A stretch of 39,283 nt of DNA from positions 1-39,283 of the forward strand of contig DAHXOU010000048.1 of NCBI GenBank assembly GCA_027364705.1. The letters are read 5' to 3'. Below, piece by piece: positions 3,988 to 39,283 of the stretch (position 1 is its first letter; each line of letters starts with the position of its first letter). The DNA is from Nanobdellota archaeon (GTDB lineage Archaea > Nanobdellota > Nanobdellia > Pacearchaeales > GW2011-AR1). The notes below the pieces were generated by a model. The model was not told the origin of the DNA, ran no database searches, and worked only from the letters and a program-made list of their open reading frames with translations. The position numbers and the translations under genes are program-made.

Positions 3988-4032
3988 ATTAGTATAACAA
4001 TTCTTAAAAATGATAAAAGTTTATCAATTAAA

Positions 4033-21578: not shown

Positions 21579-21694
21579 TTTTAGGTAGAATCTACAGAAG
21601 AAAAAGTCCGTAATTATTTATAAACCTTTCTGCACAAAAATAGTGATTTATCGACGGAGAAATTAATTATAGAACCAGATAAATAGATTATAAT

Positions 21695-22558
21695 TTATTT
21701 TTTTACTTCCTTAATTCTTCCTTCTTTCTCTATCATTTTTATGTACTTAATTATTTCATTTTTACTCTTTTTCACACCCATTTTTCCAAGTCTTTTCTGA
21801 ATTTCATTAAGACCTAATGCTTTCTTATGAGTCAAAATTTTTATAATTTTACCCTTTATTTCAGAATTAGAAATTTTTCCAGATTGCTTAACTATTTTCT
21901 TGGTCTTAGCAGGAGAATGTTTTCTTCTTGCTCTTTTTTTCTTAACTACTGCAGTTTTTGCAGGAACAACTTTTTTAGATTTTGTTTTTTTAACAACTTT
22001 AATTGGTTTCTCATGAGAAATTTTCATTTTCTTTCTTCTGACTTTGTTTTTCCTATTCTTTCTTTTTTTTCTCATTTCACTTTTAATTTTTACAATTTTC
22101 TTTTTTGCTCTTCTCTTCCTGTTCTTTCTTAATTTTCTTTTCAGATTTACCGGAATTATTTTAAGAGATAAATCCTGTCCTTTGTCTTTAAAATCCTCAA
22201 CTTTCTTTCCAAGTTTTTTAATTGCAGATTTTATTTCAGGAAGATTTTGTTCAAGATCTTTTTTAATATCTTTAATATCATCAGAAATACCGCTAACCGC
22301 TCCAGAACTTCCTCTGCTTCTTCTTTTTTTAGTAGTTGGATGATATTTATTAGAAATTTTTAATTTTAATATTTTAATTCCTCTTTCTATATTTGGAATT
22401 TCAGAAACATTTTTCAGTTTTGCTCTTATTGCATCAGCATCACTCTTAAATTTTTTTGTATCTAAAGAATTAAGTTCACGTTGCAATTCTTTCAGTCTCT
22501 CGACACCAATCTTAAATGCTTCAAAATCTTCACGGCTTATTTTTCCCTCTTTTGCCAT
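21695..22558 (-). CDS. extremely basic (K/R-rich) protein: N-terminal coiled coil, poly-basic linker, C-terminal winged-helix-like domain
   Basis: 287 aa. The central stretch 'KRKLRKNRKRRAKKKIVKIKSEMRKKRKNRKNKVRRKKMK...KKKRARRKHSPAKTKK' is more than half K/R by eye. The C-terminal 'IIKILTHKKALGLNEIQKRLG...IIKYIKMIEKEGRIKE' looks like a wHTH. SD-like GAGGA lies 6 nt upstream of the ATG. Confidence 0.6.
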   Translation of the reverse strand: MAKEGKISREDFEAFKIGVERLKELQRELNSLDTKKFKSDADAIRAKLKNVSEIPNIERGIKILKLKISNKYHPTTKKRRSRGSSGAVSGISDDIKDIKKDLEQNLPEIKSAIKKLGKKVEDFKDKGQDLSLKIIPVNLKRKLRKNRKRRAKKKIVKIKSEMRKKRKNRKNKVRRKKMKISHEKPIKVVKKTKSKKVVPAKTAVVKKKRARRKHSPAKTKKIVKQSGKISNSEIKGKIIKILTHKKALGLNEIQKRLGKMGVKKSKNEIIKYIKMIEKEGRIKEVKK

Positions 22559-22608
22559 ACATCATCCTCTTTAATATTAATATTGAATTTTGTTTTTATA
22601 TCTTTCCT

Positions 22609-23796
22609 TTACTTAAGGAAGCCAATTCGGTATCCTTGTTTTTTAAAATCAGAAAGTTGTTTGTTGATATTGCTTCCTGAAACTTTTTTCATTTCTTTTT
22701 CTGCTTCAACCATTTTGAATCCGTGTTTCTTCCAAGAGTTAAGTTTTCTACTGACTTCATTTTTCTTTCCGTGTTTCTTCAAATTTTGTAATTGTATTCT
22801 CTGAATTTTATGTTTGTGTCTTATTCCTTTAATAATTTTTTTACGAGCAAGTTTCCATTCACGTATTTTCTTTTTATTTCTAAAAGTTCTAACTTTAGCT
22901 CGGCAGGAATTAAGAAGATTAATATTATTTTGAAGTTCATTATTCTGTTGTTTCTGAAGTTTAATCAACAAGTCATCACTTCGTTTAATAAAATAAAATA
23001 ATAAAGCAAGACTCCCGACGACAAAAATCAAAATTATTACAATGAAAAAATTGGAACTCTCATAAGCAAGTTTATCCTTTTTTACTACATTGAATAAATA
23101 ACTGGATACACTTTGAGTTTCAGCATAATCGATAGTCGTTATGAACACGTAATCCCCAAGAGGAACATTAGGAAGATTGATTATTTTATTCATAGATTCT
23201 CCAAGAGTTAAATCTTCTTCATCAGACCAGATTATTTCATTGTTAAAATTTTTAATGGAATATTTGACGTGGACATTTGGAAGAGAAACATAATCTAAAT
23301 CAAAGACTTTTATTTCAACGCCCAATTTTCCATTAGGATACACATTTTCATATTTTGGAATGGTAGACTGGATAATTGCAAAAGGAGGATTTGAACCTTC
23401 AACAGTTAAGATTATTGGAATTTTTTTAACAGCATCAAAAGTTTCAATTATTAACTGCCCCGTATAAACACCAACTTCCCGAATATTATCTTTGAAAAAT
23501 ACTTTTATTTCTTTTGATTCTCCAGGACCGAGACTGAATGTTTTCTCGTCGATAGAAGCAAGATTATCCAGTTTATTGAAATAAACACTAAAATCTCTTT
23601 GAATCATTTCAGTATTTGTTATCCGGATATTATCCGTAGCTTCACCGCCAGTTTCCATATTCAGTTTAATAAGAATTATATTTGTCGCAAGTCCTGCTTC
23701 CCCAGAAAAATAATTCATTTTTACAAAGACAAATCCTGCAATAGCTAAGAAGATTATCAATACAGAAATAAATATCCACTTCTTTTTTACCATCAT
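22609..23796 (-). CDS. bitopic membrane protein, paralog of the giant protein's C-terminal anchor module, with basic cytoplasmic tail
   Basis: 395 aa. The order is N-terminal TM (WIFISVLIIFLAIAGFVFV), two beta-rich domains, a second TM (FFIVIILIFVVGSLALLFYFI) and a roughly 125-aa K/R-rich tail. It aligns by eye with giant-protein residues encoded at 23930-24570. Its ATG overlaps the giant gene's stop (ATGA). Confidence 0.75.
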   Translation of the reverse strand: MMVKKKWIFISVLIIFLAIAGFVFVKMNYFSGEAGLATNIILIKLNMETGGEATDNIRITNTEMIQRDFSVYFNKLDNLASIDEKTFSLGPGESKEIKVFFKDNIREVGVYTGQLIIETFDAVKKIPIILTVEGSNPPFAIIQSTIPKYENVYPNGKLGVEIKVFDLDYVSLPNVHVKYSIKNFNNEIIWSDEEDLTLGESMNKIINLPNVPLGDYVFITTIDYAETQSVSSYLFNVVKKDKLAYESSNFFIVIILIFVVGSLALLFYFIKRSDDLLIKLQKQQNNELQNNINLLNSCRAKVRTFRNKKKIREWKLARKKIIKGIRHKHKIQRIQLQNLKKHGKKNEVSRKLNSWKKHGFKMVEAEKEMKKVSGSNINKQLSDFKKQGYRIGFLK

Positions 23797-26700
23797 CTCT
23801 TTATCTTTTCTTTTATATAGTTCCGTATTCTTTTATACCTTTTGATTACGATAAAGAGTATTGCAGAAATAATAATTAAAGCAGAAATTATTGAAAGGAT
23901 TACTATCTTTCTATAATCTCTTTCTGCTTTGTCCATAATTGCAAATTGCGAACTTGCAACAGCAACTCCTCCAGGATAGATTAATTCAACACCGACGACA
24001 TAATCTCCATTTACAAAATCTTTGGTATTAAATTGTTTTGTAAAACTTTTCTGATTATAAACTGCAATAGTTTCTGATTCAGTAAGATAAACTTTTCCGT
24101 TGAAATCTTTAATGAGATAATTAAGCTGAACGTCCATATTTTCTTTGACTCCCATCTGAAGAAGATTAATTTGCATTTTCAAATCTTCTCCCGAATTTAC
24201 AATTTTGTCAGATTTTGGAATTGACAAAGTGATATCAAATAAACTTTTTTCAGTTCTCACATTAATGATAACAGGAATTTCTCTTCTAGTAGCTCCAGCA
24301 GTTACAATAATCTTTCCCGTATAAATTCCTGTGCTCGTCGGAGAATCAATTCTGAATTTAGCTTTTTTGGTTTCCCCCGGATTTAATCTGATTGTTGAGT
24401 TAAGGATAGAGATTATATTTCCGACACTCTCTACACCGATGCTAAAAGTAGTTTCGGTATTTCTCTCGTTATAAATTTCTATTTCTCCGAACTCAATTCT
24501 GTTTAAGATAATTGTTCTTTGGTATATCTTTGGTGAAAGAGTAAAATTATTCTGTTCAATAAAAGTTGAACCTCCTCCGCCTCCTCCAGAAGGTGTTGTT
24601 ACTGGCGTTACAGGAGTTTCTTCTGAACTATAAATTGAAAATCCAGTTACATCATAAACAAAAGTTCCTCCGGAATAACTAACTTCAGTACAAGTTGTGC
24701 AGACCACACCATTTTTTAATGGACGAGGATTGCTGAAACTTAATCCATAAAAATATAATCTTGCAGTTTTATTTAATTCAGGCAATATTGTAGTGTTAAC
24801 TTCAATTCTATTAAAACTAATATTAACACTCGCATCAATGTCAGTTCCATTTTCTAAATTAATATCCTGAGAAAAGTTTATTTCTCCATAAGTAGGAGCC
24901 TGTAAAACTAAATTAGTAATATTAGTCACATTCAAATCAGATAGATTCGTTGTAGTTCCTGAAAAATAATTTGTAATGACAACACTAAATATTCTTTGTT
25001 CACCTTCAATAACAGTATTATTATTCTGTGTACAATTAACGCTCCAATTATATCTTCCAGGAGGCAGATTATTGAGATAAAAATTCATATTCTCTGCTTT
25101 TGTGATTGTTAGATTAGTCTGGTTAATTGAATTATTAAACATCAAAGAACAGTTTGAAACTATTCCTGTTCCGTCGATAGAATAGACGAAGCTAATATTT
25201 CCGTCGTTATCTCCCGAATTATTTATCGGAGCAATTAAAGTTATTTCTAGAGTTGTATTAATTATTATAGTTCTTGTTTGTGTTGAATTTTTATTATTAA
25301 GAGTATCATTTACAGTTACATTGTAATAATAAGTTCCGTCGGATAATCCTGTCCAGTTTATCGTTCGAGTAGAATCCGTATAAGAAGTTGAGTTAAATTC
25401 CCCTGAAGTATTGTAAAGTAAAAAAGTAATCGTGTCTTCATTTATTTCATCAACACTCACGTTAACATAAATCCAGTCATTTTTGCTTGTTGTTCCGTTT
25501 GCTAATGTTCCAGTTCCGTAAGAAATGACTGAATTAATACTATCCTTAAAGAAAGTTACTGAAGAGGAATTTTTATTTCCCGCAGAGTCATTGATGTAAA
25601 CAATCCATGTATTGCTTCCTTCATTACTTGTTAATCCTGTCCAGTTTGTTCCGCAACTAACAGGTGTAGAATTTGCTCCGCCATTTAATGAATACCAACA
25701 TAAAACAGGATTTATTTCTGTATAAGTATAATTCAAGGTTGAAACATTAGAATTGTAACTTGTATTTTGGGGGTAACTCATGTTAATTTCAGGATAAACA
25801 GAATCAATAAAGAATGAAACATATTCGCTGTTGTTAATATTATTACTGGTATCATTACACCAAAATCTTGCAATATAACTTCCCTGCCCCATTGTTGAAT
25901 TTGTATAATTAGTTCCAGTCAAACTTGCATTAAGATCCATTGTATAATTCGTTGCCCAATTATTTATACTGAATAAACAAGAACTCAAATTCTCATTTGA
26001 AGAAAGGTTAAATGAAATCGTCGTAGTTGCATAAGTCGTATTCACAGGAGATAAAATATTTATCAAAGGATTAACCAAATCAGCAGCTACTGAAACATTA
26101 AGAGTAATAACACTGGAATTCAAATTTCCTAAAGTATCATTTACTGAAACATTGATGTCATATAACCCAAGTGCAAGAGCAGAAGAATTTGTCAAAATTC
26201 CTGTTGAAGAAACAATAGTAAACTTGGTTGTCCAGTTAATTGCAAAACTTCCTAATCCAACACCAGTATCATTCGCATTAATATCATAATTTAATGACTG
26301 TCCTTCGATTAAAGTTTGATTTGCTAGATTTGTAAAGTAAGGAGGTAAAGAATCGATTGTAAAATTAACACCAGTCTGGTTAAAATTATTAACAGTATCA
26401 TTTACCCAGATGGTAACATTATGTCTTCCCTGACTCCAAACTACTGTTGTTATGTTTGTTCCACAATTTGCAAGAGTAATATTCAAACTCATTGAATCAT
26501 TTGAATACCAGCAAGTTGAAAGATGTACGTCGGAAACAGTGTAGTTTATATTTAATCCAGTATTAGATGAATTTGTATTATTCGTCGTAGGATAAGTTAT
26601 GCTAATAGCGGGTTTAGTTGTATCAATGCTAAATGACACTGATGATGAATTTTCATTACCGGCACTATCATTTGCCCAGATAGTTACATTATGATAACCT

Positions 26701-32700: not shown

Positions 32701-35700
32701 CTTGTGCTTGTTCCCTGAAAAGTTCCAAAATTATTATAACTTGAATTGTCATAAACACCAGTTGTATTATAAAAATCAAAACTCCACCACCCCATTAAAG
32801 TTCTGTTGAAATCAAGAAATGTTGAATGATCGCTTGCATCACTTGTTGAAACATTTACATAAATTGAATTTCCAGATTGAGTGCTCCCATTCGACGGAGT
32901 TGGATTTGTGAAATTAATATTTGGACTTACATCTGTTACATTTACAATATAACTTCTTTCATCACTTTTATTATAATTATGCAATGTTCCATTACTATAA
33001 GCCCACCATCGATAAGCATAAGTCCCCCCAACAGTAAAAGTATGTGAAGCGTTGTAGACATTTGCAGTTAAATTTTTCGCAGTAATATTTGTTCCATCAA
33101 TTTCCAACCATACAGTTCCATTTGTATTTACAACAGTTACATTGAATAAACCAATTCCAGAATCTAATATAGAAGCATTATTGTCATAATAATTTGAGAA
33201 AAGAGGATAAATAGAATCAATATTAAAAGTTACTGAAGATGAATTTATATTTCCAGCAGAATCATTCGCCCAAATTGTTACATTGTGATTTCCTTGTGCC
33301 CAAATTATTGTTGTAATATTCGTCTGACAATTTGCTAAAGTTGTATTTGCGGAATAAGAATCATTAGAATACCAGCAAGATTGAAGATTTAAGTCAGATG
33401 CAGTATAATTAATATTTAATCCTGCATTTGAAGAATTAGTTCCATTTGTTGGAGAAGTGATGTTAATATTTGGAGCAGTTGTATCTGCAACATAATTAAT
33501 TGCTCCTGTTTCTGTATCTGTTCTTGTATAACTGCTGTAAGTTGCATTTACAAATAAATCCTGCAATCCAGTTAATCCAGTAGGAACAGTTACATTAGCT
33601 TCCCATCCTTTTCCAATTACATATCCATATTGATTAGTAGTTTCTGCAACGACACTAAAATTAATATCATCATCATCCCCAAAAGTACCATTATAACATT
33701 GATTAGATCCGTTTAAAGTTCCAAAAGTTACTTGTCCTCTTATGTATTGTGTTGCATTAGAAGAAGTTATATTCACGTTAATGGAATAGTTCCCAACGGT
33801 ACCCGGATAATCACAGGTTGCATCATAAAATTCTTCATTCCATACACTTCCATTATAATACCAAATTTTTACTTCATCACCAACACCATCACATCTAACG
33901 GCCATAGTAACATTTATTTTATCTGTAGGATGAAAAGATGTTCCATTTAACCATAAATCTACAACAGCATCTGTTCCATCACATGAACTTGCACCAGTAC
34001 AACTATCTGCCAAAATATTATTTGTACAATAAAGAGGACTTCCTTGATTACAACTAACTCCGCAAGATTTTTCAGTATAATTTAAATTTTTTGCTGTCGT
34101 AACCAAATTAGCAAATATTCCTCCAATGGTCAAATTATTCAATGTAACTCCAGAAGTTATATTTGCACTATTTTGTAAGAAATTAAAATAAACAGAAATA
34201 TTCTCATTTGAAGTAACACTTAATGGACTTGATGTAGTGGGTGAAGTTATTTGAACTGAGTAAACTGTCGGAGCAGAAATATTCAAACTACGATTAGTTC
34301 CCCAAGCATTTTGACTTGCATTATCATAAACTAAACAGTTCCATTTAGTTGAATTATAAAAACTGAAATTATAAGTAAAGGTAGTAGAGTTAGTTGTTCC
34401 TGTCCAAGATGTAAAATTAGTTGTTATTATTCCACCAGAGGAATTCCAAACATAAAGAGTCACATTCTTAAGATTATTATCGTCGGTGGCATTACATTCA
34501 AAGGTTACAACTCCTAAATCAGTTACATTATTATTTGCTGGTCTGCTTAAAATTGAAGCGGGAGGATTATCCACTGCTCCGCCACATATTCCATCCCAAG
34601 CAGTTCCATCCGAATGATAAGAAGCCCAATCAGCTCCTGTTGCATTTACATCATAAGCGTGAATAAAATTTTGACTACAGAAACCAATATTTGTTGCAGC
34701 AGAGTATGACGCAACCGCATTGTATTGATAGCCAGTAATAGCATTATTAGTGCTGTTTATTGGTCCTGCTAATAATGTCCCCCCAGAAGTGTATACTGCA
34801 AAAGTATCGGCAGGTAGATTAAACCAACTAATTGCAAAAGCAGTTGAATTCAAAGCTGCAACAGATACAGTACTATAACCCCCATATAAATTGTCAATAG
34901 CATTAATATCCCCCGTTAGATTATTTCCTGCAGAATCATATATTTTAAATGCTACATCATCTTGTGGAAAATTTTGCCAACCAAGTACGAAAGCAGTTGA
35001 ATTAAAAGCAGAAGTTGTGACTGTATAAGAACCTGTTCCTGGTTCTACAGCATTGATAATATTAGTTAAATTATTTCCTGCAAAATCATATATTGCAAGA
35101 TCAATAGAAGAACCATTATACCAGCTAAATACAAAGGAAGTAGAATTAAAAGCTGAAATAGAAACAGATTGAGAAGCAACGACATTAGTATCTGCATCAA
35201 TTGGTGCAACTAATTGGTTTCCTGCAGAATCATATATCGCGAAAGTTGAATCTCCATCTGCTTTATCCCACCAACCGATTGCAAAAGCAGTTGAATTAAA
35301 AGCTGAAACAGCAACAACCGAATTGTAACTAATTGCAGTATCTGCAGAAATTGGTGCAACTAATTGGTTTCCTGCAGAATCATATATCGCAAACATAGCA
35401 TCTTCAGCATCATTATCTGCATAACCAACAACAAAGGAAGTAGAATTAAAAGCAGAGACAGATAATTGATTTAGAGCACAGTCATAAACACTATTATCGA
35501 CAGTAATATCTCCAGTAATATTAGTTCCATTAGTATCATAAATCTTGAAAATAATATCATTAACTGATTTGTCACACCATGCTAAAGCAAATTTATTAGT
35601 AGTTAAGGGAGCTAAAGCAACTGGTCGGGCATCAGTAATAGAAAAAGTGGGGTCAATAATATAATCAAACTCAGTATTATTTGAAACTTTCAAATCAAAA

Positions 35701-36752
35701 GTATCTTGAGAATGAGTTAAATTAGTTAAATAAATCTTAGACCAATTTTCAGAATTAATAACAGGGAAAGTCGCAATTAAATTAGTTCCATCTTTTTCAT
35801 AAACTTCAATAGTAGAATTGTTTCCCCTTGCATAAATTGTTATATCATTTTTATTAGTCAAATTTTTTTCAAAACTAACTCTAACATATTCATTTTGTTT
35901 TATCGTCTCACTCCAATTACTATCATTATATTTAACAGAATCATAAATATCCGAGATAAATTCTCTGCTCGAATTTAAATGAACGGCAGAAGAAATTTCA
36001 ATATAAAATTCAAAGATAATTGTATTGTATCCAACTTTGATTTTCTCGCCTATAAATTTGGAAAAATTTTTCTTGTCATAATCTGACAAATCAATATTAA
36101 AAACTCCTTCTTTAGATAAATCAACCTTATCATTTATTTTTGTTTTAGAACTTGTATTAACAGGATAGTCCTTAATATTATTGGCTGAATTTTTAAAAGA
36201 GTCTATCTTAGTTTGATTTTTTTCATCTTTAATATATTTTTCAATTACTTTGTCTAAACATTTATCATCTTTCTTTTTCTCGGTTTCAGGACAATCATTT
36301 ATATCTTTCAGCAAGGTTTCGTTTAATTTATATCTTACTTCAAATCTTGTTTCATTTATTTTGTTTATAGTATAAATAATGTAATTCTCAAATCCTTCTT
36401 GTTCTATTATTTTTAAATTCAAAATCCCCTGTTTATCTTTTATTTTATCTTCAAGAGATTTTGCATCAGTTAAACCAAAACTTGTTTTTCCTTCGAGAAT
36501 CTCATTTCCAAATTCATCAATTGCAAATCCTGAAATAGTCGGCTTGAAATAAAAAAATCCCGCAAGCAAAGATAAAACCAAAAACAAAATAACAAAGACA
36601 GATATTATCTTCGGAGAAATAATTTTTTTTCCTTTTACACTACTCTCTTTTCCAATATATTCTGTTACAACTTTTCCTTTTTCTTTATGATTAGAATAAG
36701 AATACGGACCGTAAACTTTTCCACCTTTTTTTATGTACCGATTGTAAACCAT
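23793..36752 (-). CDS. giant (4,319 aa) modular surface glycoprotein-like protein with N- and C-terminal TM anchors
   Basis: A single uninterrupted 12,960-nt ORF. Module order:
- a roughly 45-aa cytoplasmic N-terminus (YIKKGGKVYGPYSYSN...GKVVTEYIGK) and a TM (36550-36610)
- a K-rich unique domain
- 6-7 propeller-like repeats of about 48 aa
- a Cys-rich domain
- at least 7 'CWYSNDS' beta-sandwich modules
- a LamG/ConA-like domain
- three long near-identical repeats
- a unique region of about 490 aa
- a poly-Gly linker, an anchor module, a TM and the basic tail KRYKRIRNYIKEKIKR
N-x-S/T sequons occur throughout. Confidence 0.9.
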   Translation of the reverse strand: MVYNRYIKKGGKVYGPYSYSNHKEKGKVVTEYIGKESSVKGKKIISPKIISVFVILFLVLSLLAGFFYFKPTISGFAIDEFGNEILEGKTSFGLTDAKSLEDKIKDKQGILNLKIIEQEGFENYIIYTINKINETRFEVRYKLNETLLKDINDCPETEKKKDDKCLDKVIEKYIKDEKNQTKIDSFKNSANNIKDYPVNTSSKTKINDKVDLSKEGVFNIDLSDYDKKNFSKFIGEKIKVGYNTIIFEFYIEISSAVHLNSSREFISDIYDSVKYNDSNWSETIKQNEYVRVSFEKNLTNKNDITIYARGNNSTIEVYEKDGTNLIATFPVINSENWSKIYLTNLTHSQDTFDLKVSNNTEFDYIIDPTFSITDARPVALAPLTTNKFALAWCDKSVNDIIFKIYDTNGTNITGDITVDNSVYDCALNQLSVSAFNSTSFVVGYADNDAEDAMFAIYDSAGNQLVAPISADTAISYNSVVAVSAFNSTAFAIGWWDKADGDSTFAIYDSAGNQLVAPIDADTNVVASQSVSISAFNSTSFVFSWYNGSSIDLAIYDFAGNNLTNIINAVEPGTGSYTVTTSAFNSTAFVLGWQNFPQDDVAFKIYDSAGNNLTGDINAIDNLYGGYSTVSVAALNSTAFAISWFNLPADTFAVYTSGGTLLAGPINSTNNAITGYQYNAVASYSAATNIGFCSQNFIHAYDVNATGADWASYHSDGTAWDGICGGAVDNPPASILSRPANNNVTDLGVVTFECNATDDNNLKNVTLYVWNSSGGIITTNFTSWTGTTNSTTFTYNFSFYNSTKWNCLVYDNASQNAWGTNRSLNISAPTVYSVQITSPTTSSPLSVTSNENISVYFNFLQNSANITSGVTLNNLTIGGIFANLVTTAKNLNYTEKSCGVSCNQGSPLYCTNNILADSCTGASSCDGTDAVVDLWLNGTSFHPTDKINVTMAVRCDGVGDEVKIWYYNGSVWNEEFYDATCDYPGTVGNYSINVNITSSNATQYIRGQVTFGTLNGSNQCYNGTFGDDDDINFSVVAETTNQYGYVIGKGWEANVTVPTGLTGLQDLFVNATYSSYTRTDTETGAINYVADTTAPNINITSPTNGTNSSNAGLNINYTASDLNLQSCWYSNDSYSANTTLANCQTNITTIIWAQGNHNVTIWANDSAGNINSSSVTFNIDSIYPLFSNYYDNNASILDSGIGLFNVTVVNTNGTVWLEIDGTNITAKNLTANVYNASHTFTVGGTYAYRWWAYSNGTLHNYNKSDERSYIVNVTDVSPNINFTNPTPSNGSTQSGNSIYVNVSTSDASDHSTFLDFNRTLMGWWSFDFYNTTGVYDNSSYNNFGTFQGTSTSNIVTGIRGKGMQFNGVNNSISVPDSSLSGFTNGLTVSLWIKSNTTNDVPIADFSGTSGGYGIYCDGNWYTANGSAFLPVDAGRLTDNSWHMYTLIWNITNLISYRDGNLLASANGVGSLFPSASLTLGVDNRGPAPCAYFNGSLDDVLIFSRALSSSEISSLYNTSAYQYRNNFTNLTNANYNFTAYAIDSSGNLNKTETRIVTVGITSDTTPPYFTAIPANASLNYLQALDVDFNASDETAFGFYAVNDTRFTINSSGGLKNNTILGVAVYLINITINDSSNNLNSTIYQVNVSKIAPTLTYSINSQLNNISITYPQQVNASASTTGGTVKLYRNDVDVTTENGLNQTLGAANYTYIFNVTGNQNYSNIALVTMTINVSQNTSSKIYTYLNNSRNNITIYNNTAIWLNATLFNATGTIYLYKNGTLINSGNSPLSNLTSFNGTGLYNITAIYPSNTNYSGSSETWYVNVTPPDTIKPNINITYPVNGTNSSNINLNVNYTVSDNIAISSCWYSNDSYSVNTTLSNCANLTTIVWSQGKHNVTIWTNDTSNNLNSSFVSFNIDSIGPVCTLLNRTPSNLVDNSTGVLTVIMNCTDINGVNLTKLGDHYAFFITRTVDAFVLAAGIPNYWSNRYPNNSLGVVGNLTPPYKIWRALGRNEGYWYDSITTLNKTCEGINPCYNILNDTFSYAIEDGEYGHFTITAENTANTSVIINYTHPAVDVAAFRQSVYLSYESMVKESKKNYTIRNNNYLLMKRFDAEAYRNTQNYTMNSFRNLAVTGAPSKTFRAFYCNSSYNPAGSVQVINSPNCALINSLTSTEINNRIFTDRNSSYSKGTYGIINGHFGGIKATAEFYIEYESPETAAGKSYELRYANGTTNTDVPFNQTNVAWITTNGGTTWVQANFTPDVFTTSTRSANDEFDFGYYATDMYGNAGYNFSLVRDEITPTNHPISYPIVLEYNNSALNYDINLNGTHKGIMQIKIGCAKDPDSVGNVTHNLTLRNTDGTWNYTINGSFLCPNDLDLWINFNTSLVPDGKYRTNITAYSGDNSADVKSRITDRNFTIDNTQPAISITTPLNNSNSSNVNLDVNYTLSDITSSISSCWYSNDSYSVNTTLSNCVNLTTIVWSDGYHNVTIWANDTVNNVNKSSVSFRIDSLPPYFTNLQTQTIADNQTLNYDINAVDDGVGLGSFAINWTTNFSIVASTGVLSNSTHLSAGTYYINVSVNDTLGNLNSSVLQISVTSTADTTPPYFTTIPANASLNYLQALNVIFSAADETAFGTYAVNDTRFTINSSGGLKNNTILGVALYLINITINDSSNNLNSTIYQVNVSKIAPTLTYSINSQLNNISITYPQQVNASASTTGGTVKLYRNDVDVTTENGLNQTLGVTNYTYIFNVTGNQNYSNIASVTMTINISQNTSSKIYTYLNNSRNNITIYNNTAIWLNATLFNSTGTIYLYKNNTLINSGNSPLSNLTSFNGTGLYNITAIYPSNTNYSGSSETWYVNVTSTADTTPPYFTAIPANASLNYLQALDVDFNASDETAFGFYSVNDTRFTINSSGGLKNNTILGVALYLINITINDSSNNLNSTIYQVNVSKIASQTSLTFDKTNPQSYPNAITPTCSVISGQGTTTLTNGTSGSQIVLGVGNWTFNCSLASSQNYTESSNTTIFNITQNTTYVLSLAITPSTIVTYPTETTATGSGCPSELICNLSLNTSGIVANPHVITLGVGVYNYTYNSTGNENYSIMTTSSILTVAQNTSSKIYTYLNNSRNNITIYNNTAIWLNATLFNVTGTIYLYKNNTLINSGNSPLSNLTSFNGTGLYNITAIYPSNTNYSGSSETWYVNVTAIADSTNPIVNIIYPVPKFNSSNTGLNINYTASDNVAISACWYSNDSMSLNIPLANCANITTVTWAEGPHNITIWANDTTNNLGSASVNFTIDTINPEINITSLVNGTNSSNVNLDINYTVSDLHLTGCWYSNDSYSVNTTLSNCANLTSIVWSQGYHNVTIWANDSAGNENSSSVSFSIDTTKPAISITYPTTNNTNSSNTGLNINYTVSDVHLSTCWYSNDSMSLNITLANCGTNITTVVWSQGRHNVTIWVNDTVNNFNQTGVNFTIDSLPPYFTNLANQTLIEGQSLNYDINANDTGVGLGSFAINWTTKFTIVSSTGILTNSSALALGLYDINVSVNDTLGNLNSSVITLNVSVAADLVNPLINILSPVNTTYATTTISFNLSSNENLSSCLFSINNWATNYTMDLNASLTGTNYTNSTMGQGSYIARFWCNDTSNNINNSEYVSFFIDSVYPEINMSYPQNTSYNSNVSTLNYTYTEINPVLCWYSLNGGANSTPVSCGTNWTGLTSNEGSNTWIVYINDSAGNKNSSSVTFFKDSINSVISYGTGTLANGTTSKNDWIYVNVSVDEINEDTITFLLYNTSGEFNSTSYTDSTRTINWTGLSDGTYYYNVTVNDTLNNKNSTQTRTIIINTTLEITLIAPINNSGDNDGNISFVYSIDGTGIVSNCSLMFNNSINQTNLTITKAENMNFYLNNLPPGRYNWSVNCTQNNNTVIEGEQRIFSVVITNYFSGTTTNLSDLNVTNITNLVLQAPTYGEINFSQDINLENGTDIDASVNISFNRIEVNTTILPELNKTARLYFYGLSFSNPRPLKNGVVCTTCTEVSYSGGTFVYDVTGFSIYSSEETPVTPVTTPSGGGGGGSTFIEQNNFTLSPKIYQRTIILNRIEFGEIEIYNERNTETTFSIGVESVGNIISILNSTIRLNPGETKKAKFRIDSPTSTGIYTGKIIVTAGATRREIPVIINVRTEKSLFDITLSIPKSDKIVNSGEDLKMQINLLQMGVKENMDVQLNYLIKDFNGKVYLTESETIAVYNQKSFTKQFNTKDFVNGDYVVGVELIYPGGVAVASSQFAIMDKAERDYRKIVILSIISALIIISAILFIVIKRYKRIRNYIKEKIKR
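26350..27165 (-). repeat. three tandem ~85-90-aa 'CWYSNDS' beta-sandwich modules (further copies at ~33200-33480, ~31000-31285, ~29250-29520, ~25540-25800)
   Basis: Each module reads 'NI(T/S)..P.NGTNSSN..LN(I/V)NYT(A/V)SD....(S/A/G/T)CWYSNDS(Y/M)S.N(T/I).L(A/S)NC.N(I/L)T(T/S)..W.(Q/E)G.HN(V/I)TIWAND(S/T)..N.....V.F.ID(S/T)'. I located the copies by the recurring antisense DNA string tcat(t/ta)gaatacca(g/a)ca. Confidence 0.8.
27166..28177 (-). repeat. long intragenic repeat copy R3 (mosaic: R1-like first ~270 nt, divergent ~465-nt centre, R1/R2-like last ~275 nt)
   Basis: 28081-28177 is essentially identical to 31978-32074 of R1, closer than R2 is to either. The centre (about 27440-27905) encodes different sequence (SQTSLTFDK...TVAQNTS). 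27166-27440 again matches the R1/R2 C-terminal part. Confidence 0.8.
28186..28972 (-). repeat. long intragenic repeat copy R2 (787 nt)
   Basis: It has the same module as R1, and both ends match at offset 3,102. It is directly followed in protein order by R3, so R2 and R3 are tandem. Confidence 0.85.
31288..32074 (-). repeat. long intragenic repeat copy R1 (787 nt, ~262 aa: DTTPPYFT...SKIAPT...SKIYTYLNNS...WYVNVT)
   Basis: It aligns without indels to 28186-28972 at a constant offset of 3,102 nt. I estimate about 90% nt identity by eye. Confidence 0.85.
32200..32800 (-). other. LamG / concanavalin-A-like lectin (Laminin_G_3-like) domain of the giant protein
   Basis: 'LMGWWSFDF...YDNSSYNNFGTFQGT...GIRGKGMQFNGVNNSISVPDS...GLTVSLWIK...WHMYTLIW...LISYRDGNL...YFNGSLDDVLIFSRALSSSEISSLY' is the classic Laminin_G_3 pattern. 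Confidence 0.75.
34600..35640 (-). repeat. 6-7 tandem ~48-aa repeats (possible beta-propeller) inside the giant gene
   Basis: The recurring unit is 'S-x-SAFNST(S/A)F-x-x-x-W...(F/A)-x-IYDS(A)GN-x-L-x-x-x-I'. At the DNA level, the string ggtgcaactaattggtttcctgcagaatcatatatcgc occurs twice (about 35205-35242 and 35352-35390). Confidence 0.6.
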
Positions 36753-36791
36753 TCAACCCCTCTAAATTAAAAAAATAATGGTAGTGTAACT

Positions 36792-36799
36792 ATTTAAAT
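36792..36799 (-). promoter_or_regulatory. TATA box (ATTTAAAT) and downstream SD-like GAGGGG (36757-36762) for the giant gene
   Basis: The TATA lies about 43 nt upstream of the ATG (36752), which predicts a short leader containing GAGGGG 4 nt before the ATG. It sits in the 68-nt gap after the upstream gene's stop. Confidence 0.35.
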
Positions 36800-36820
36800 G
36801 TTTTTTACCGAGGAGAACTA

Positions 36821-39283
36821 TTAATGAAATTCATACGCACCAATGTCCCAAGCAGAACCTTGTGGACGAGAAATTCCATCTGCATCAGAATCAACAACAC
36901 CCGCAAGATTTGATCCTGCATTAATTGCTGGACTACTTGAAATTAAATGATAATTTGCAGTTCCAAAAATTGAAGTAGGATTAACAAAAATACTTCCTAA
37001 ATTAAGCACCTGACTTTCTCCAGTTTTAAGAGTGTAGATTCCCAATCCAGAAGTATAAATATTATTTGAAGTAACATATTTTGAATCTGATTCTTGATGA
37101 GGAGTTGACATAATATTATTTCTTAAAATAGCAGAAGTCGCTACTTTTGAAAGATGAGGTAATGTCAAAAGACTAGAACCCTGAGCATAAGTACTTAACA
37201 AAACATTGTTATAAGCTTCAAAAGTATAAATTGTAGTCCAGAAAGATAAAGGAGCTGAATCCTCTAAACCGTATAATACATTATTTTTTATTTCTACATT
37301 ATTGACGTAATTAAAAGCCATTGGTCTTACATTAAATATTATATTTCTGTTAGCATAAACATTATTGATATAACTGGTAGCATCTCCATAAAATGCAACG
37401 CCATTGGTATGAACTCCTTCAAATCCATAAATCTTATTATCATCAAAAGTAATGTCTCCACCCCAAGTATTAATTAAAATACCTGAATTTGACCTAGTCA
37501 TAGTATTATTTCTTATTATTCCGGATCCAGAGGATAAATAAATAACTCGAGTATCCTTTACACTACTGATATAATTATTTTCGACTAATGAGTCACCATC
37601 CAGAAAAATCATACCAGAAAGTCCGCCACCTATACTTTGAATAAGATTATTTTTTATTTCAATTCCTGTTCCCATACGAAATCCGTTCCCCCAATAATTC
37701 TGAATTTTAAATCCATCAATAACAACATCGTGACTCGTTGGAGAATAAAATGCATCTTCTAAAGAAGCAATACTAATTGGAAAAGTAGAAATATCTTTCT
37801 TTGGCCAGATATAAACACGTCTGGTTGATTCATCATAATAGAATTCCCCTGCTCTCTCAAAGATAGAACTTAGATTGCTATTCATTATTGAATAATTGGT
37901 AGTCGGATAAAGAATACTGCAAACACTTGAAGGGAAAGTTATAGTATTTGGAGCAGTGTATCCAGAAATTTTTATGTGATTAACAACATTATTATCACAC
38001 CATAATGCAACATAACTTCCGATTAAATTAGCTCCGCCAAGAGCAGATAAAGCAGGATCAGTTAATTGAATAGTTGTAGTATTACTTACAACATTACTCG
38101 TCGATAAATAATGAGTTATATCTCCGTAATAAAAAGGGTCAATCATATTTGGATGTTGAGACATAAATAAAAAATCACCGTCTTGGTAAAGACTAAGATC
38201 CCACGCAGAACTAATTCCATAAGAAGATAAATCCATGTACCAAAGATTATTGTAATTCGGATTATTCAAACAACCAGATTGACTTGTACATCTAACAAAT
38301 CCAGAAAGTTGTTGAGAGCCATCAAGAATTGCTCCTTGTCTGACCAAAGATTGGATTTTTATTTTATTACTTGCTGTTCCGGAATTAATACCATTAATCG
38401 CCTCTCGGTATATTCCTGGTTGAACAAGAATAGTATCTCCTGCAGCAGCAAGACCAACTGCATTTCTTATACTACACCAAGGACGTGTTAAATTATTTTG
38501 TGCTTTGGTATAACTATCACTGCAGGTTCCAGATAAATTATTTTTATCGACGTAATAAGAATTTGTTATTTGCATAACACAAGTTCTTGCAACACAGTTA
38601 TAACCCGCTTGACATCCTCCTCCGTAATTTCCACAATTAACAGTTCCACAAGTTCCATTTGATGCAGTTCCACAATTGAAAGAACCACAAGGATTTGCCG
38701 TCGGTGTACAACTTGCAGAGAAGCATTGGCCTGTTGCATTACAAGTTTGTCCTCCAGAACAAGTTCCACAACTCATTGTTCCACAAGTTCCATTATTCCA
38801 AGTTCCACAATTCTTTCCTAATGCTATACAAGTTGTTGGTGTACAACTTCCAACAGGAGGAATTTCAATTCTTTTCCCAGTTCTTACATTAAAGCTGTCT
38901 GCAATATTTCCAAGATTCTCTTCACCATTGTTTGAACTAAAAATCGGAACAATTGAAATTGTAACTAAAGTTGAAACATTCATCGACAAATGAAAAACAA
39001 ATCTTCTCTCACCAAGTTGAACCAAATTAACATCTTCAGTAACAATTTCAGTATTTGAATTGTTATAGAAAACAAATTTCATTCCAACCAAATTTCCTTC
39101 GCCGACATTTCTCTTTACAGACATGGTAACATTGTTGGAGGAGTTATCTATATTCACTCCTTTAATTTCTGTGCTCAAAGTTAATTTTTCTAATCCAATA
39201 TTCTGCGAACTGTTCTGAATTAAATTATTTATAACAACCCAGAAGATTCCGATAGCAACTAAAGAAATCAAAATTATAATCAG
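36821..39283 (-). CDS. 5'-truncated secreted protein: pilin-like hydrophobic N-terminus, beta domain, two Cys-knot repeats and a right-handed parallel beta-helix (DUF1565/pectate-lyase-like)
   Basis: The ORF is open to the window edge: the codons upstream of the track's TTG read L-I-I-I-L. Domains in order:
- 'LISLVAIGIFWVVINNLIQNS' hydrophobic helix
- Cys repeats 'CGTWNNGTCGTMSCGTCSGGQTCNATGQC' and 'CGSFNCGTASNGTCGTVNCGNYGGGCQAGYNC'
- beta-helix N-cap 'YYVDKNN...RPWCSIRNAVGLAAAGDTILVQPGIYRE'
- repeated 'I(R/K/E)NN' rungs
- C-terminal 'DSDADGISRPQGSAWDIGAYEF'. Confidence 0.75.
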   Translation of the reverse strand: MIIILISLVAIGIFWVVINNLIQNSSQNIGLEKLTLSTEIKGVNIDNSSNNVTMSVKRNVGEGNLVGMKFVFYNNSNTEIVTEDVNLVQLGERRFVFHLSMNVSTLVTISIVPIFSSNNGEENLGNIADSFNVRTGKRIEIPPVGSCTPTTCIALGKNCGTWNNGTCGTMSCGTCSGGQTCNATGQCFSASCTPTANPCGSFNCGTASNGTCGTVNCGNYGGGCQAGYNCVARTCVMQITNSYYVDKNNLSGTCSDSYTKAQNNLTRPWCSIRNAVGLAAAGDTILVQPGIYREAINGINSGTASNKIKIQSLVRQGAILDGSQQLSGFVRCTSQSGCLNNPNYNNLWYMDLSSYGISSAWDLSLYQDGDFLFMSQHPNMIDPFYYGDITHYLSTSNVVSNTTTIQLTDPALSALGGANLIGSYVALWCDNNVVNHIKISGYTAPNTITFPSSVCSILYPTTNYSIMNSNLSSIFERAGEFYYDESTRRVYIWPKKDISTFPISIASLEDAFYSPTSHDVVIDGFKIQNYWGNGFRMGTGIEIKNNLIQSIGGGLSGMIFLDGDSLVENNYISSVKDTRVIYLSSGSGIIRNNTMTRSNSGILINTWGGDITFDDNKIYGFEGVHTNGVAFYGDATSYINNVYANRNIIFNVRPMAFNYVNNVEIKNNVLYGLEDSAPLSFWTTIYTFEAYNNVLLSTYAQGSSLLTLPHLSKVATSAILRNNIMSTPHQESDSKYVTSNNIYTSGLGIYTLKTGESQVLNLGSIFVNPTSIFGTANYHLISSSPAINAGSNLAGVVDSDADGISRPQGSAWDIGAYEFH
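38570..38860 (-). repeat. two tandem Cys/Gly/Thr-rich knot-like repeats in the beta-helix protein
   Basis: 'SCTPTTCIALGKNCGTWNNGTCGTMSCGTCSGGQTCNATGQC' and 'SCTPTANPCGSFNCGTASNGTCGTVNCGNYGGGCQAGYNCVARTC' share the spacing CTPT...CG(T/S)(W/F)N.GT(A)..GTCGT(M/V).CG. Confidence 0.7.

What the first reader, a model, noticed from the sequence alone, without database searches (positions are those of the whole stretch)
22609..39283. 16.7-kb co-directional surface locus centred on a 4,319-aa doubly anchored giant protein: candidate cell-cell attachment system
**Seen:**
- Three consecutive minus-strand genes occupy 43% of the window: a pilin-like/Cys-knot/beta-helix protein, then (after a 68-nt gap with its own TATA and SD) a 12,960-nt uninterrupted ORF, then (ATGA overlap) a 395-aa paralog of the giant's own membrane anchor.
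- The giant protein starts with a short cytoplasmic motif (YIKKGGKVYGPYSYSN..GKVVTEYIGK) and a TM.
- It ends with a TM and a basic tail, so about 4,200 aa of ectodomain would be tethered at both ends unless the N-terminal TM is cleaved.
- The ectodomain is a chain of modules: propeller-like repeats, a Cys-rich domain, at least 7 'CWYSNDS' modules, LamG, PPYFT-type modules and a unique domain of about 490 aa.

**Established:** LamG/ConA-like and parallel beta-helix folds are typical glycan- or protein-binding and glycan-cleaving folds. Very large surface proteins are a recurrent feature of small-genome episymbiotic archaea and bacteria.

**Inference:**
- The three genes form one functional unit for attaching to, and perhaps locally degrading, a partner cell's envelope.
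- Apart from LamG and the beta-helix, I cannot map any module to a named family, so most of this 5,500-aa ensemble is effectively undescribed.
Basis: partly seen in the sequence, partly recalled or inferred. Interest (0 to 1): 0.88.

Follow-up and report, generated by a model that had tools for sequence, protein, structure and literature searches.

The report
Giant modular surface protein cassette, DPANN archaeon
A small-genome (DPANN, Pacearchaeota-like) archaeon encodes a 4,319-residue sugar-coated surface fibre next to a small membrane partner related to its own anchor; the pair is conserved at this genomic spot in related archaea, and most of its conserved parts have never been described.

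Summary
Three co-directional minus-strand genes fill 22609-39283:
- **B**: 816+ aa, cut by the contig end.
- **G**: 4,319 aa.
- **A**: 395 aa.

G carries two predicted transmembrane (TM) helices, a LamG domain, a 7-bladed propeller, 7+1 'CWYS' and 5 'PPYF' Ig-like modules. Its C-terminal anchor is paralogous to A.

New findings:
- G's ends are conserved in Pacearchaeota, Woesearchaeota and Nanoarchaeota genomes; the middle is swapped out. The conserved ends are an N-terminal YGPY motif plus TM, a 122-aa beta-sandwich 'X', and the anchor.
- The order big protein -> A -> basic protein D -> gyrB recurs in every relative examined.
- B is linked only in the closest relatives. It is a type-IV-pilin-like protein with a beta-helix head.
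- The 'unique' domain is not unique. It occurs in 142 other protein clusters and has no close PDB fold.
- N-glycosylation sequons are 2.4-fold enriched in G.
- In some relatives the gene is split inside X, so double anchoring is not obligatory.

The best reading is a C-terminally anchored, glycosylated, lectin-bearing adhesin or envelope fibre with A as its membrane base. A host-attachment role is plausible but untested. It is a new variant of a known kind.

The parts
36821..39283 (-). Gene B (5' end cut by the contig end). Order of parts: type-IV-pilin-like N-terminal helix (39215-39283), about 115-aa pilin-type domain (38867-39214), Cys-rich repeats (38537-38854), right-handed beta-helix (36962-38494), choice-of-anchor-Q cap (36827-36961).
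   Evidence: -: the ORF runs off the window.
- orthologues start '..KRGLSTIIVTLILILISLVAIGIFWVV'.
- Beta_helix 25.5 bits, against a cutoff of 25.9.
- orthologue P0117 scores 55.8 bits.
- NF041518, 51.2 bits.
- Pel9A-like beta-helix on P0117 and P0118.
36753..36820 (-). 68-nt B-G spacer with a TTTAAATA box, a T7 run and GAGGGG before the ATG.
   Evidence: read directly from the sequence. Promoter and terminator function were not tested.
36639..36752 (-). G aa 1-38: conserved basic N-terminal 'YGPY' motif. Consensus: MVYKRYIKK.GK.YGPY.Y.S.K..GKV.S.YLGK.
   Evidence: -: conserved in at least 24 homologues and in the positional orthologues L008, L011 and L014 (41-63% identity).
- no Pfam or NCBIfam hit.
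36543..36614 (-). G aa ~47-70: first hydrophobic segment, either a signal anchor or the H-region of an extended signal peptide. It is followed by 'TISG|FA'.
   Evidence: -: hydropathy.
- conserved T/S-G after the helix in homologues.
35646..36014 (-). G aa 247-369: module X, a conserved ~122-aa beta-sandwich ending in FDYI(I/V)DP.
   Evidence: -: 50-60% identity in about 75 DPANN proteins.
- pLDDT 95-98.
- no Pfam or PDB sequence match.
34608..35645 (-). G aa 370-715: 7-bladed beta-propeller with ~50-aa blades and a weak DUF7244 match.
   Evidence: -: internal repeats.
- DUF7244, 29.5 bits.
- seven 4-stranded blades, pLDDT ~70.
- Foldseek matches prolyl-oligopeptidase (POP) propellers and the fucose lectins AFL, AOL, FleA and CV39L.
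33513..34607 (-). G aa 716-1080: Ig-like (Big_7-like) domains plus a Cys-rich domain with 8 Cys at aa 897-1019.
   Evidence: Big_7, E=1.2e-4, below the cutoff; Cys positions.
32220..32657 (-). G aa 1366-1511: LamG / concanavalin-A-like domain.
   Evidence: Laminin_G_3, E=3.8e-21, 76.3 bits against a cutoff of 27.6.
29718..31031 (-). G aa 1908-2345: module U, a ~440-aa conserved beta-rich domain containing an Asp-box-like WxSTxxGxxW motif.
   Evidence: -: 143 cluster representatives including G itself, 130 at E<1e-10.
- AF2 pLDDT 82, pTM 0.83.
- best PDB TM-score <0.2.
- about 190 residues resemble phage tail-fibre or minor-tail domains.
- no PDB sequence hit.
24603..33512 (-). Ig-like stalk arrays interleaved with LamG and U.
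- CWYS modules at aa 1081-1172, 1815-1907, 2406-2497, 3191-3281, 3281-3370, 3368-3459, 3551-3642 (variant) and 3641-3730.
- PPYF blocks with long internal duplications: aa 1554-1840, 2595-2880 and 2860-3175.
   Evidence: -: Big_13, 44 bits.
- module positions and internal repeats.
- the copies are 86-92% identical at the nucleotide level.
23796..24563 (-). G aa 4064-4319: membrane-proximal anchor after a GGGGGG linker. It has a tandem beta-sandwich region (4064-4280), a TM (4283-4305) and a basic tail (4306-4319).
   Evidence: -.
- 49% identity to the AR19 orthologue.
- 41-51% identity to L008 and L011.
- weak Ig-like hits (FixG_C).
- CARDB on a close relative.
- almost no sequons.
22609..23796 (-). 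Gene A (395 aa). Order of parts: signal or TM segment (aa 7-29), two beta-sandwich domains paralogous to G's anchor (30-245), a TM (249-271), and a conserved basic cytoplasmic tail with two 'WKKxGY' motifs (272-395).
   Evidence: (33 full-length orthologues, 33-68% identity; conserved tail).
21695..22558 (-). Gene D (287 aa). Lys/Arg-rich and predicted cytoplasmic, always found between A and gyrB. It is a possible but unproven fourth member of the unit.
   Evidence: -: orthologues in L001, L004-L006, L009-L015 with 30-62% identity in the N-terminal ~115 aa.
- no family or PDB hit.

Best explanation
**What it is.** G is the local version of a positionally conserved, fast-diversifying cell-surface fibre of Pacearchaeota/Woesearchaeota-type DPANN archaea.

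**Proposed mechanism**
1. G is exported through an N-terminal basic YGPY motif plus hydrophobic segment.
2. It is held in the membrane by a C-terminal TM. That TM is preceded by a tandem beta-sandwich 'foot'.
3. A long, heavily N-glycosylated stalk of Ig-like modules projects from the cell. The stalk carries lectin-type modules: the 7-bladed propeller, LamG and U. These would bind glycans or proteins on other cells or particles.
4. A is co-translated from the overlapping downstream gene. It is a small type-I membrane protein with a foot paralogous to G's.
5. A most likely packs beside G's foot to form the membrane base. Its long conserved cytoplasmic tail, which G lacks, links that base to the cell interior.
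6. B is a separate, lineage-restricted accessory. It is a type-IV-pilin-like protein that presents a polysaccharide-binding or -cleaving beta-helix head.

**Shown:** the gene structure, the domain identities, the conserved-ends/variable-middle pattern, the synteny and the sequon enrichment.

**Inferred:** surface location, glycosylation, G-A pairing, ligand binding and any role in host attachment.
For: **Organism.** The window is archaeal (aIF2-gamma, aIF5B, S6e). The homologues come from Pacearchaeota, Woesearchaeota and Nanoarchaeota MAGs.

**Topology.** G has basic ends and two hydrophobic segments, and its 50 Cys are spaced in module-wise pairs.

**Domains**
- LamG.
- Big_13-type Ig arrays.
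- Propeller resembling fucose lectins and POP propellers.
- U resembling phage receptor-binding-type domains over about 190 residues, with no enzyme match.

**Sequons.** G has 308 N-X-S/T sites against 127 +/- 9.5 expected (z=19). There are about none in the foot and none in A's ectodomain.

**Conserved ends, variable middle.** In the positional orthologues of 2,207-2,281 aa (L008, L011), NT is 41-63% identical, X 52-56% and the foot 41-51%. Linker and propeller have no match there. A close relative has a 4,973-aa version.

**Synteny.** Big protein with foot -> A -> D -> gyrB occurs in L001, L004-L006, L008-L015 and sample 3300075153. L008 lacks a detected D and L012 lacks upstream DNA.

**G-A link.** The ATGA overlap, the paralogy of A to the foot, and a conserved cytoplasmic tail in 31 aligned A-family sequences.

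**B.** Class-III-type signal peptide in orthologues. Its N-terminal 230 aa are shared by paralogues with LamG or other heads.
Against: - There are no expression, localisation or binding data.
- The whole block down to gyrA and PD-(D/E)XK is syntenic in these relatives. Gene order alone therefore does not prove a functional link.
- No structure or interaction prediction was made for the foot or for a G-A complex.
- No oligosaccharyltransferase gene lies in the window, so glycosylation is inferred from sequons only.
- Lectin-like folds are also used for non-adhesive purposes.
- The number of repeat modules could be an assembly artefact.
- Curated archaeal pilin N-terminal models do not hit B's orthologues.
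Confidence: 0.6

Rival explanations
1. G (with A as base) is the organism's main envelope or S-layer-type protein. It would form a structural canopy anchored by C-terminal TMs, like tetrabrachion or SlaA/SlaB, rather than a dedicated host adhesin.
For: - One positional orthologue per genome sits at a fixed site beside gyrB in all relatives.
- It has a C-terminal TM anchor and extreme sequon enrichment, as in archaeal S-layer glycoproteins.
- It has a small partner with a related membrane-proximal part.
- The termini are conserved.
Against: - Length varies from about 1,300 to 4,973 aa, and the middle is replaced wholesale among close relatives. That is unusual for lattice-forming proteins.
- The architecture is that of a stalk of tandem Ig modules with lectin domains.
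- There are no hits to known S-layer families.
- Several NT/X paralogues occur per genome.
Confidence: 0.2
2. One reading: both TMs are retained, so about 4,200 aa form a loop tethered at both ends. The conserved cytoplasmic YGPY motif would act as an intracellular docking site.
For: - NT motif and C-terminal foot/TM co-occur in the same protein in the window, L008 and L011.
- The 38-aa motif is far more conserved than an ordinary signal-peptide n-region.
- The charge distribution fits an N-in/C-in topology.
Against: - A conserved T/S-G follows the first helix, which is compatible with signal-peptidase cleavage.
- Relatives place X directly after a plain signal peptide.
- In AR19 and L006 the ectodomain is a separate gene with its own signal peptide and only the C-terminal anchor.
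Confidence: 0.3
3. The 12,960-nt ORF is partly an assembly artefact. In-register collapse, expansion or chimeric joining within the 86-92%-identical repeat modules would give a wrong module count, or fuse two genes.
For: - There are long internal duplications.
- Independent short-read contigs of the same organism stop at window 26256, where the repeats begin.
- The exact protein is on no other record.
- The relatives' contigs also break inside the gene.
Against: - The repeats differ by 8-14% at the nucleotide level, which is enough for unique assembly paths.
- The frame stays open for 12,960 nt in 31% GC DNA.
- Orthologues of 2,207-4,973 aa with the same end architecture exist.
- Both ends of G have the expected conserved modules.
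Confidence: 0.15

Closest known systems
Bacterial fibrillar adhesins: a stalk of tandem Ig-like repeats plus adhesive domains plus a cell anchor. Examples are SiiE, LapA and the 1.5-MDa ice-binding adhesin MpIBP (my own knowledge; a MpIBP fragment, 5irb, appeared as a weak Foldseek hit).
   Same: - Very long stalk of ~90-aa Ig-like modules with near-identical internal duplications.
- Lectin-type modules (LamG, propeller) are embedded in the stalk.
- The protein is cell-anchored at one end.
- Length varies rapidly between relatives.
   Different: - The host is archaeal.
- The anchor is a C-terminal TM preceded by a conserved two-domain foot, not LPXTG, T1SS retention or an outer-membrane plug.
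- It has a conserved YGPY N-terminal motif and module X.
- It has a dedicated paralogous partner, A.
- It shows massive N-glycosylation sequon enrichment.
SPEARE proteins of Nanohaloarchaeota (PMC6642349) and other large DPANN surface proteins with LamG or Ig domains (PMC7414124). Also the large extracellular proteins of Pacearchaeota and Woesearchaeota (PMC8204110).
   Same: They are giant or large predicted extracellular proteins of DPANN archaea, and are proposed to mediate contact with host cells. LamG/concanavalin-like and Ig-like domains recur.
   Different: - No serine protease, restriction endonuclease or lytic transglycosylase domain was detected in G.
- In the papers I read, I found no description of the NT-X-...-foot architecture or of the G-A-D-gyrB cassette.
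Archaeal S-layer systems with a membrane-anchored stalk: tetrabrachion and SlaA/SlaB (PMC5744192; details from my own knowledge).
   Same: A C-terminal TM anchor, heavy N-glycosylation potential, and a two-gene arrangement of a large outer protein and a smaller membrane-anchored one.
   Different: - Both G and A carry their own TM.
- There is no sequence or family match.
- The variable modular middle argues against a lattice protein.
Extended or specialised signal peptides of giant bacterial surface proteins: KxYKxGKxW (TIGR03715), YSIRK and ESPR (my own knowledge).
   Same: A conserved basic motif lies upstream of the hydrophobic core at the N-terminus of very large, repetitive, glycosylated surface proteins. 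'YIKKGGKVYGPY' even resembles KxYKxGKxW superficially.
   Different: - There is no homology evidence, and NCBIfam gave no hit.
- The archaeal motif is longer (~38 aa).
- It is separated from the helix by a variable linker.
- Its function is unknown.
Giant 'Dockerin-type' and other giant proteins of Omnitrophota (bioRxiv 10.1101/2023.11.21.568195).
   Same: Very large, mostly unannotated extracellular proteins of ultra-small cells. They have C-terminal TM and intracellular regions, and are proposed to act in attachment to host or prey.
   Different: - Those are bacterial and 10,000-85,000 aa long.
- They have different domains (dockerin, discoidin, SecA_DEAD).
- They share no modules with G.

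Membership tests
Laminin_G_3 / concanavalin-A-like lectin (PF13385) | Profile match above Pfam's gathering score | tested here: met
   76.3 bits against 27.6, E=3.8e-21, G aa 1366-1511, profile positions 2-151 of 151.
Bacterial Ig-like domain Big_13 (PF19077) | Profile match above the gathering score | tested here: met
   44 bits against 27, best stretch aa 1103-1179 (a CWYS module). Other modules are related by self-comparison.
Beta-propeller (lectin-like) | Circular array of 4-stranded blades; structural match to solved propellers | tested here: met
   seven 4-strand blades at pLDDT ~70, which is moderate; 251 PDB matches at E<=1e-3. The top hits are POP propellers and the fucose lectins AFL, AOL, FleA and CV39L, with TM-score 0.55-0.63 normalised by target. 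Sugar binding was not tested.
Right-handed parallel beta-helix / Pel9A-like (PF13229, PF22842), gene B | Profile match above the gathering score | tested here: inconclusive
   The window protein scores 25.5 bits against a cutoff of 25.9. Orthologue P0117 (62% identity) scores 55.8 bits and carries a precomputed PF22842. The C-terminal NF041518 choice-of-anchor-Q domain scores 51.2 against 25. The fold is very likely; catalytic residues were not examined.
Archaeal type IV pilin-like protein (class III signal peptide), gene B | Short basic n-region and a [KR]G|[LIA][ST] prepilin-peptidase site | tested here: inconclusive
   The site lies beyond the window end. Orthologues show 'KRGLSTIIVTL..', 'KKGLSTIIVTL..' and similar sequences.
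Archaeal type IV pilin-like protein (class III signal peptide), gene B | ~20-residue hydrophobic helix directly after the cleavage site | tested here: met
   Window: LIIILISLVAIGIFWVVINNL. It aligns with the orthologues.
Archaeal type IV pilin-like protein (class III signal peptide), gene B | Match to curated pilin or archaellin N-terminal models (Pfam Pilin_N, TIGR02537) | tested here: not met
   no such hit at E<=0.1 for the full-length orthologues P0117, P0120 and P0126. Short hydrophobic models are easily filtered out.
Archaeal type IV pilin-like protein (class III signal peptide), gene B | Prepilin peptidase and a pilus assembly ATPase/platform in the genome | not testable with these tools
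   None are in the 39-kb window. The rest of the genome is not available.
Fibrillar adhesin (operational class) | Stalk of tandem repeat domains + putative adhesive domain + cell anchor | tested here: met
   Stalk. LamG, propeller and U. C-terminal TM. Adhesion itself was not tested.
Archaeal S-layer protein | Match to known S-layer families; lattice formation; high abundance | tested here: not met
   There are no S-layer family hits. Lattice formation and abundance cannot be tested here. Sequon richness and the C-terminal TM are shared features.
SPEARE proteins (Nanohaloarchaeota) | Serine protease, adhesion and restriction-endonuclease domains in one giant protein | tested here: not met
   No protease or endonuclease domain appeared in the Pfam or NCBIfam scans of G or its segments.
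NT-X-foot family (defined here) | N-terminal YGPY motif + TM, module X, C-terminal two-domain foot + TM, followed by an A-family gene | tested here: met
   the window, L008 and L011 have all elements. L014 has them across an N-masked gap. L013 and L006 have them split over two genes.

The most novel reading that the evidence does not exclude
Module X is a separable 'clasp'. This would work like the SEA and GAIN domains of animal mucins and adhesion GPCRs.
- The giant ectodomain would be held non-covalently, through complementation of the two halves of the X beta-sandwich, to a separately membrane-anchored N-terminal module that carries the cytoplasmic YGPY motif.
- The foot and A, with its conserved cytoplasmic tail, would anchor the other end.
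- Pulling on the fibre, for example on contact with a host cell, could then be sensed or released at X.
- That would make the cassette a DPANN-specific adhesion-and-signalling device.
- The naturally split genes, cut at the same hairpin loop of X in AR19, L006, P0072 and P0079, would be the two-polypeptide version.
Probability: 0.1. Interest if true: 0.8.

Novelty: new variant of a known kind. Interest (0 to 1): 0.5.

Why it matters
**The gap.** Pacearchaeota and Woesearchaeota are abundant, uncultivated, small-genome archaea. Their partners and attachment machinery are unknown.

**What this locus offers.**
- It defines a conserved, easily recognisable cassette: NT motif, X, a variable lectin/Ig stalk, a foot, then partner A, beside gyrB.
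- Four of its conserved modules are unannotated (NT, X, U and foot/A). These could be turned into family models.
- The conserved ends could be used to find and compare the hypervariable, presumably ligand-binding middles across genomes. That is a practical handle on host range or particle attachment.
- The split-gene variants give a natural experiment on how the protein is assembled.

**The limit.** The general idea that giant lectin-bearing surface proteins mediate DPANN contacts is already in the literature. No function is demonstrated here.

Tried and rejected
- **Whole-G homologue search.** It timed out, so G aa 1-720 was used instead.
- **PDB sequence searches.** Whole G gave nothing. B gave only a marginal xylosidase hit. 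Profiles of U, X, A and the protein D gave nothing significant.
- **Family scans.** Pfam and NCBIfam on the NT motif, X and relatives said to carry PF20586 or DUF2341 gave no hit on these modules. DUF2341 in P0018 lies elsewhere in that protein.
- **Independent copy of G.** The hoped-for second 4,319-aa copy (P0148) proved to be the window's own protein. The exact look-up of G found no record.
- **Contaminated X profile.** My first X profile was contaminated by misaligned propeller rows, giving spurious 'X' hits at G 399-519. It was rebuilt and all loci were rescanned. Only one search is used for X and NT claims.
- **Names for U-domain proteins.** None are on record.
- **Foldseek on X.** Foldseek with the X+propeller model was dominated by the propeller, so the fold class of X beyond 'beta-sandwich' is undetermined.
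- **Pilin models.** Curated pilin N-terminal models did not hit B's orthologues.
- **RNA genes.** Rfam and tRNA scans of the window found nothing.
- **Ideas rejected.** 'U is an enzyme' was rejected because it has no catalytic-fold match. 'B-G-A is a conserved triad' was rejected because B is absent upstream in the distant relatives.

Full report
**1. Observation**

The ORF scan shows three consecutive minus-strand genes:
- A at 22609-23796 (395 aa).
- G at 23793-36752 (4,319 aa, 12,960 nt without a stop).
- B at 36821-39271.

G and A overlap by ATGA. The B-G spacer is 68 nt and contains TTTAAATA, a T7 run and GAGGGG. B has no stop upstream and runs off the window, which is also the contig end. 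Orthologues show that about 22 residues are missing.

The rest of the window encodes ordinary genes. These include aIF5B, aIF2-gamma, S6e, gyrase A/B, a MacB-type ABC transporter and a PD-(D/E)XK nuclease. GC content is about 31%. No tRNA or Rfam RNA was found. Homologues come from Pacearchaeota, Woesearchaeota and Nanoarchaeota MAGs. The organism is therefore a DPANN archaeon of that group.

**2. Anatomy of G**

*Termini.* Hydropathy gives two segments, aa 42-73 and 4280-4307. The N-terminus is basic (+8 over 45 aa) and so is the C-terminal tail (+6).

*Curated matches.* These are few:
- Big_13.
- Laminin_G_3 at aa 1366-1511, E=3.8e-21.
- Weak DUF7244 and Big_7.
- No PDB chain matches by sequence.

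*Repeat structure.* Self-comparison shows that most of aa 1050-3900 is a chain of ~90-aa Ig-like units with long duplications of up to 97% amino-acid identity. The copies are 86-92% identical at the DNA level. A profile of the 'CWYS' unit finds seven copies plus one variant. 'PPYF' occurs five times. The 50 cysteines are spaced as pairs within modules.

*Predicted structures.*
- AlphaFold2 on aa 236-720 with 47 homologues gives a very confident ~122-aa beta-sandwich, module X (aa 247-369, pLDDT 95-98).
- It is followed by a seven-bladed propeller at pLDDT ~70.
- Foldseek matches the propeller to prolyl-oligopeptidase propellers and to the fucose lectins AFL, AOL, FleA and CV39L.

*The 'unique' domain (U, aa 1908-2345).*
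- It recurs in 142 other 50%-identity cluster representatives, 130 of them at E<1e-10. All are in large multidomain proteins.
- It folds confidently (pLDDT 82, pTM 0.83).
- It has no real PDB neighbour; the best TM-score is below 0.2.
- About 190 residues resemble domains of phage tail-fibre and minor-tail proteins.
- No enzyme-like match was seen.

*Sequons.* N-X-S/T sites number 308, against 127 +/- 9.5 in shuffles (z=19). They are nearly absent from the last 320 residues and absent from A's ectodomain.

**3. Conserved ends, variable middle**

A search with aa 1-720 found 81 proteins. Mapping them back shows two strongly conserved pieces:
- The first ~40-68 residues. The consensus is MVYKRYIKK.GK.YGPY.Y.S.K..GKV.S.YLGK, followed by a variable linker, a hydrophobic helix and a conserved T/S-G.
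- Module X, at 50-60% identity in about 75 proteins.

Neither piece matches Pfam, NCBIfam or PDB.

The C-terminal ~250 residues form a 'foot' plus TM plus basic tail. They are 41-53% identical in the large proteins of relatives.

In the positional orthologues L008 and L011 the scores are NT 41-63%, X 52-56% and foot 41-51%. The linker and propeller have no counterpart there. The middle shares only individual modules. Orthologue sizes range from about 1,324 aa to 4,973 aa.

**4. Gene A**

A aligns with G aa 4064-4280 at 28% identity, E=4e-17. It has 33 full-length orthologues at 33-68% identity.

The family shares these features:
- An N-terminal signal-like helix.
- Two beta-sandwich domains, supported only by weak Ig-like hits.
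- A TM.
- A conserved juxtamembrane YFIK.RD.LL.QLRKQQ motif.
- A basic coiled segment.
- Two WKKxGY motifs.

G has only a 14-residue tail, so A supplies a cytoplasmic part that G lacks.

**5. Synteny**

Contigs carrying A orthologues always show a large foot-bearing protein immediately upstream. Where downstream sequence is present, a basic protein D and then gyrB follow, D being undetected only in L008. The window's D lies at 21695-22558.

A scan of one genome per species with the A profile returned eight MAG loci. Rescanning with clean local profiles gave the following:
- L008 and L011 have NT-X-...-foot proteins of 2,281 and 2,207 aa upstream of A.
- L014 has the same across an N-masked gap.
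- L009, L010, L015 and L004 have the C-terminal part, cut by contig ends.

The whole block down to gyrA and PD-(D/E)XK is also syntenic. Order alone therefore does not prove function. The paralogy, the overlap and the tight spacing add weight.

**6. Gene B**

Orthologues begin with a textbook class-III-type signal sequence, for example MKKEGIISKRG|LSTVIVTLIIILISLVAIGIFWVV. After it come:
- A ~115-aa domain.
- Cys-rich repeats.
- A beta-helix. The window protein scores 25.5 bits, just under the cutoff. The orthologue scores 55.8 bits. A Pel9A-like family is precomputed on the orthologues.
- A choice-of-anchor-Q cap.

The N-terminal 230 aa are shared by paralogues whose heads are LamG or other domains. 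Curated pilin N-terminal models do not hit.

B's linkage to the locus is limited:
- A B orthologue precedes a 4,973-aa giant in sample 3300075153.
- In L004 it lies between the large protein and A.
- It is absent upstream in L008, L013 and L014.
- L011 has a different Cys-rich secreted protein there, with TSP1, DUF4215 and a weak pilin-domain match.

The triad is therefore lineage-restricted, while the G-A(-D) core is conserved.

**7. Double anchoring**

The topology prediction is sound and recurs in L008 and L011. Three observations weaken it as a necessity:
- A conserved small-residue pair follows the first helix.
- Several family members have X directly after an ordinary signal peptide.
- In AR19 (L013) and L006 the gene is split inside X.
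  - Gene 1 has NT, TM, the first half of X and a conserved Cys-containing tail.
  - Gene 2 has its own signal peptide, the second half of X, the stalk and the foot.
  - Unrelated genes lie between the two halves.
  - P0072 and P0079 are further gene-1-type proteins.

**8. Assembly**

Independent Logan contigs reproduce window 21262-26256 at 99.98% and stop where the repeats begin. No other record holds the whole protein. The gene is credible, because its ends are correct and large orthologues exist. The module count is unverified.

**9. Interpretation**

The most economical reading is a C-terminally anchored, heavily glycosylated fibre of the fibrillar-adhesin type. It bears lectin-like modules, and A forms its membrane base. 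B is an accessory pilin-fusion protein with a polysaccharide-directed beta-helix.

An S-layer-like structural role is the main rival. It is not excluded, and in an episymbiont the two roles may coincide.

The literature already proposes that large LamG/Ig or other extracellular proteins mediate DPANN-host contact (PMC7414124, PMC8204110, PMC6642349). This is therefore a new variant of a known kind. Its value lies in the conserved cassette, four unannotated conserved modules and the split-gene variants.

Noticed in passing
L013:1-6329 (archaeon GW2011_AR19), L006:3-6256; also proteins P0072 and P0079: The orthologue of G is split inside module X at the same hairpin loop, between 'DITIYAR' and 'IEVYEKD'.
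- Gene 1 ends with a conserved Cys-containing tail (..VPC.IY.KK.R.D.[LI]R..).
- Gene 2 starts with its own signal peptide and a conserved NEL[ND]S..GY.WL motif.
- Different cargo sits between the halves: a Schlafen/AlbA_2-HATPase_c_4-HTH gene in AR19, and an NTP_transf_2 + HEPN pair in L006.
   Followed up: partly
window 23796-36752 (G) against 23062-23709 (A ectodomain): N-X-S/T sequons are 2.4-fold over expectation in G (308 against 127, z=19). They are virtually absent from G's last 320 residues and from A's ectodomain. B is not enriched.
   Followed up: yes
window 21695-22558 (-): Gene D is a 287-aa Lys/Arg-rich protein with a conserved ~115-aa N-terminal part and a C-terminal stretch that looks like a winged helix. 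It is always located between A and gyrB in relatives (296-534 aa there). It has no family or PDB match. It could be a nucleoid protein or a cytoplasmic partner of A's tail.
   Followed up: partly
window 22612-22983 (A aa 272-395): A's cytoplasmic tail carries two copies of a conserved 'WKKxGY' motif and an invariant juxtamembrane YFIK.RD.LL.QLRKQQ segment across 31 aligned family sequences. No known family matches.
   Followed up: partly
L011:9941-15022: In this Nanoarchaeota MAG the A orthologue is 488 aa with a duplicated foot region. A second, 779-aa protein with an NT motif and foot follows D.
   Followed up: no
L001/L013:13047-16247 against window 19692-21578: gyrB of AR19 carries an intein (Intein_splicing, 1,065 aa). 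The window's gyrB (628 aa) does not. A ParE-type toxin pair is inserted between the big protein and A in AR19.
   Followed up: no
window 167-463 (-): A 98-aa ORF matches only the first 59 of 302 positions of Diphthamide_syn and then stops. It may be a truncated or frameshifted dph2, close to the contig end.
   Followed up: no
window 38537-38854 (B aa 140-245): The Cys-rich ~45-aa repeat of B (C..T.C...G.NCG.W..GTCG...CG.C) recurs in multiple copies in otherwise unrelated secreted proteins, including P0133, P0140, P0142 and P0146 (polysaccharide deacetylase and others). It is a mobile Cys-rich module of unknown fold.
   Followed up: no
window 24603-24760 (G aa ~3920-4050): A ~130-aa module lies just before the Gly6 linker and foot (..GEINFSQDINLENGTDIDASVNISFNRIEVN..CTTC..). 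It has no family match apart from a faint Nup98 autopeptidase-like hit (E=0.059).
   Followed up: no
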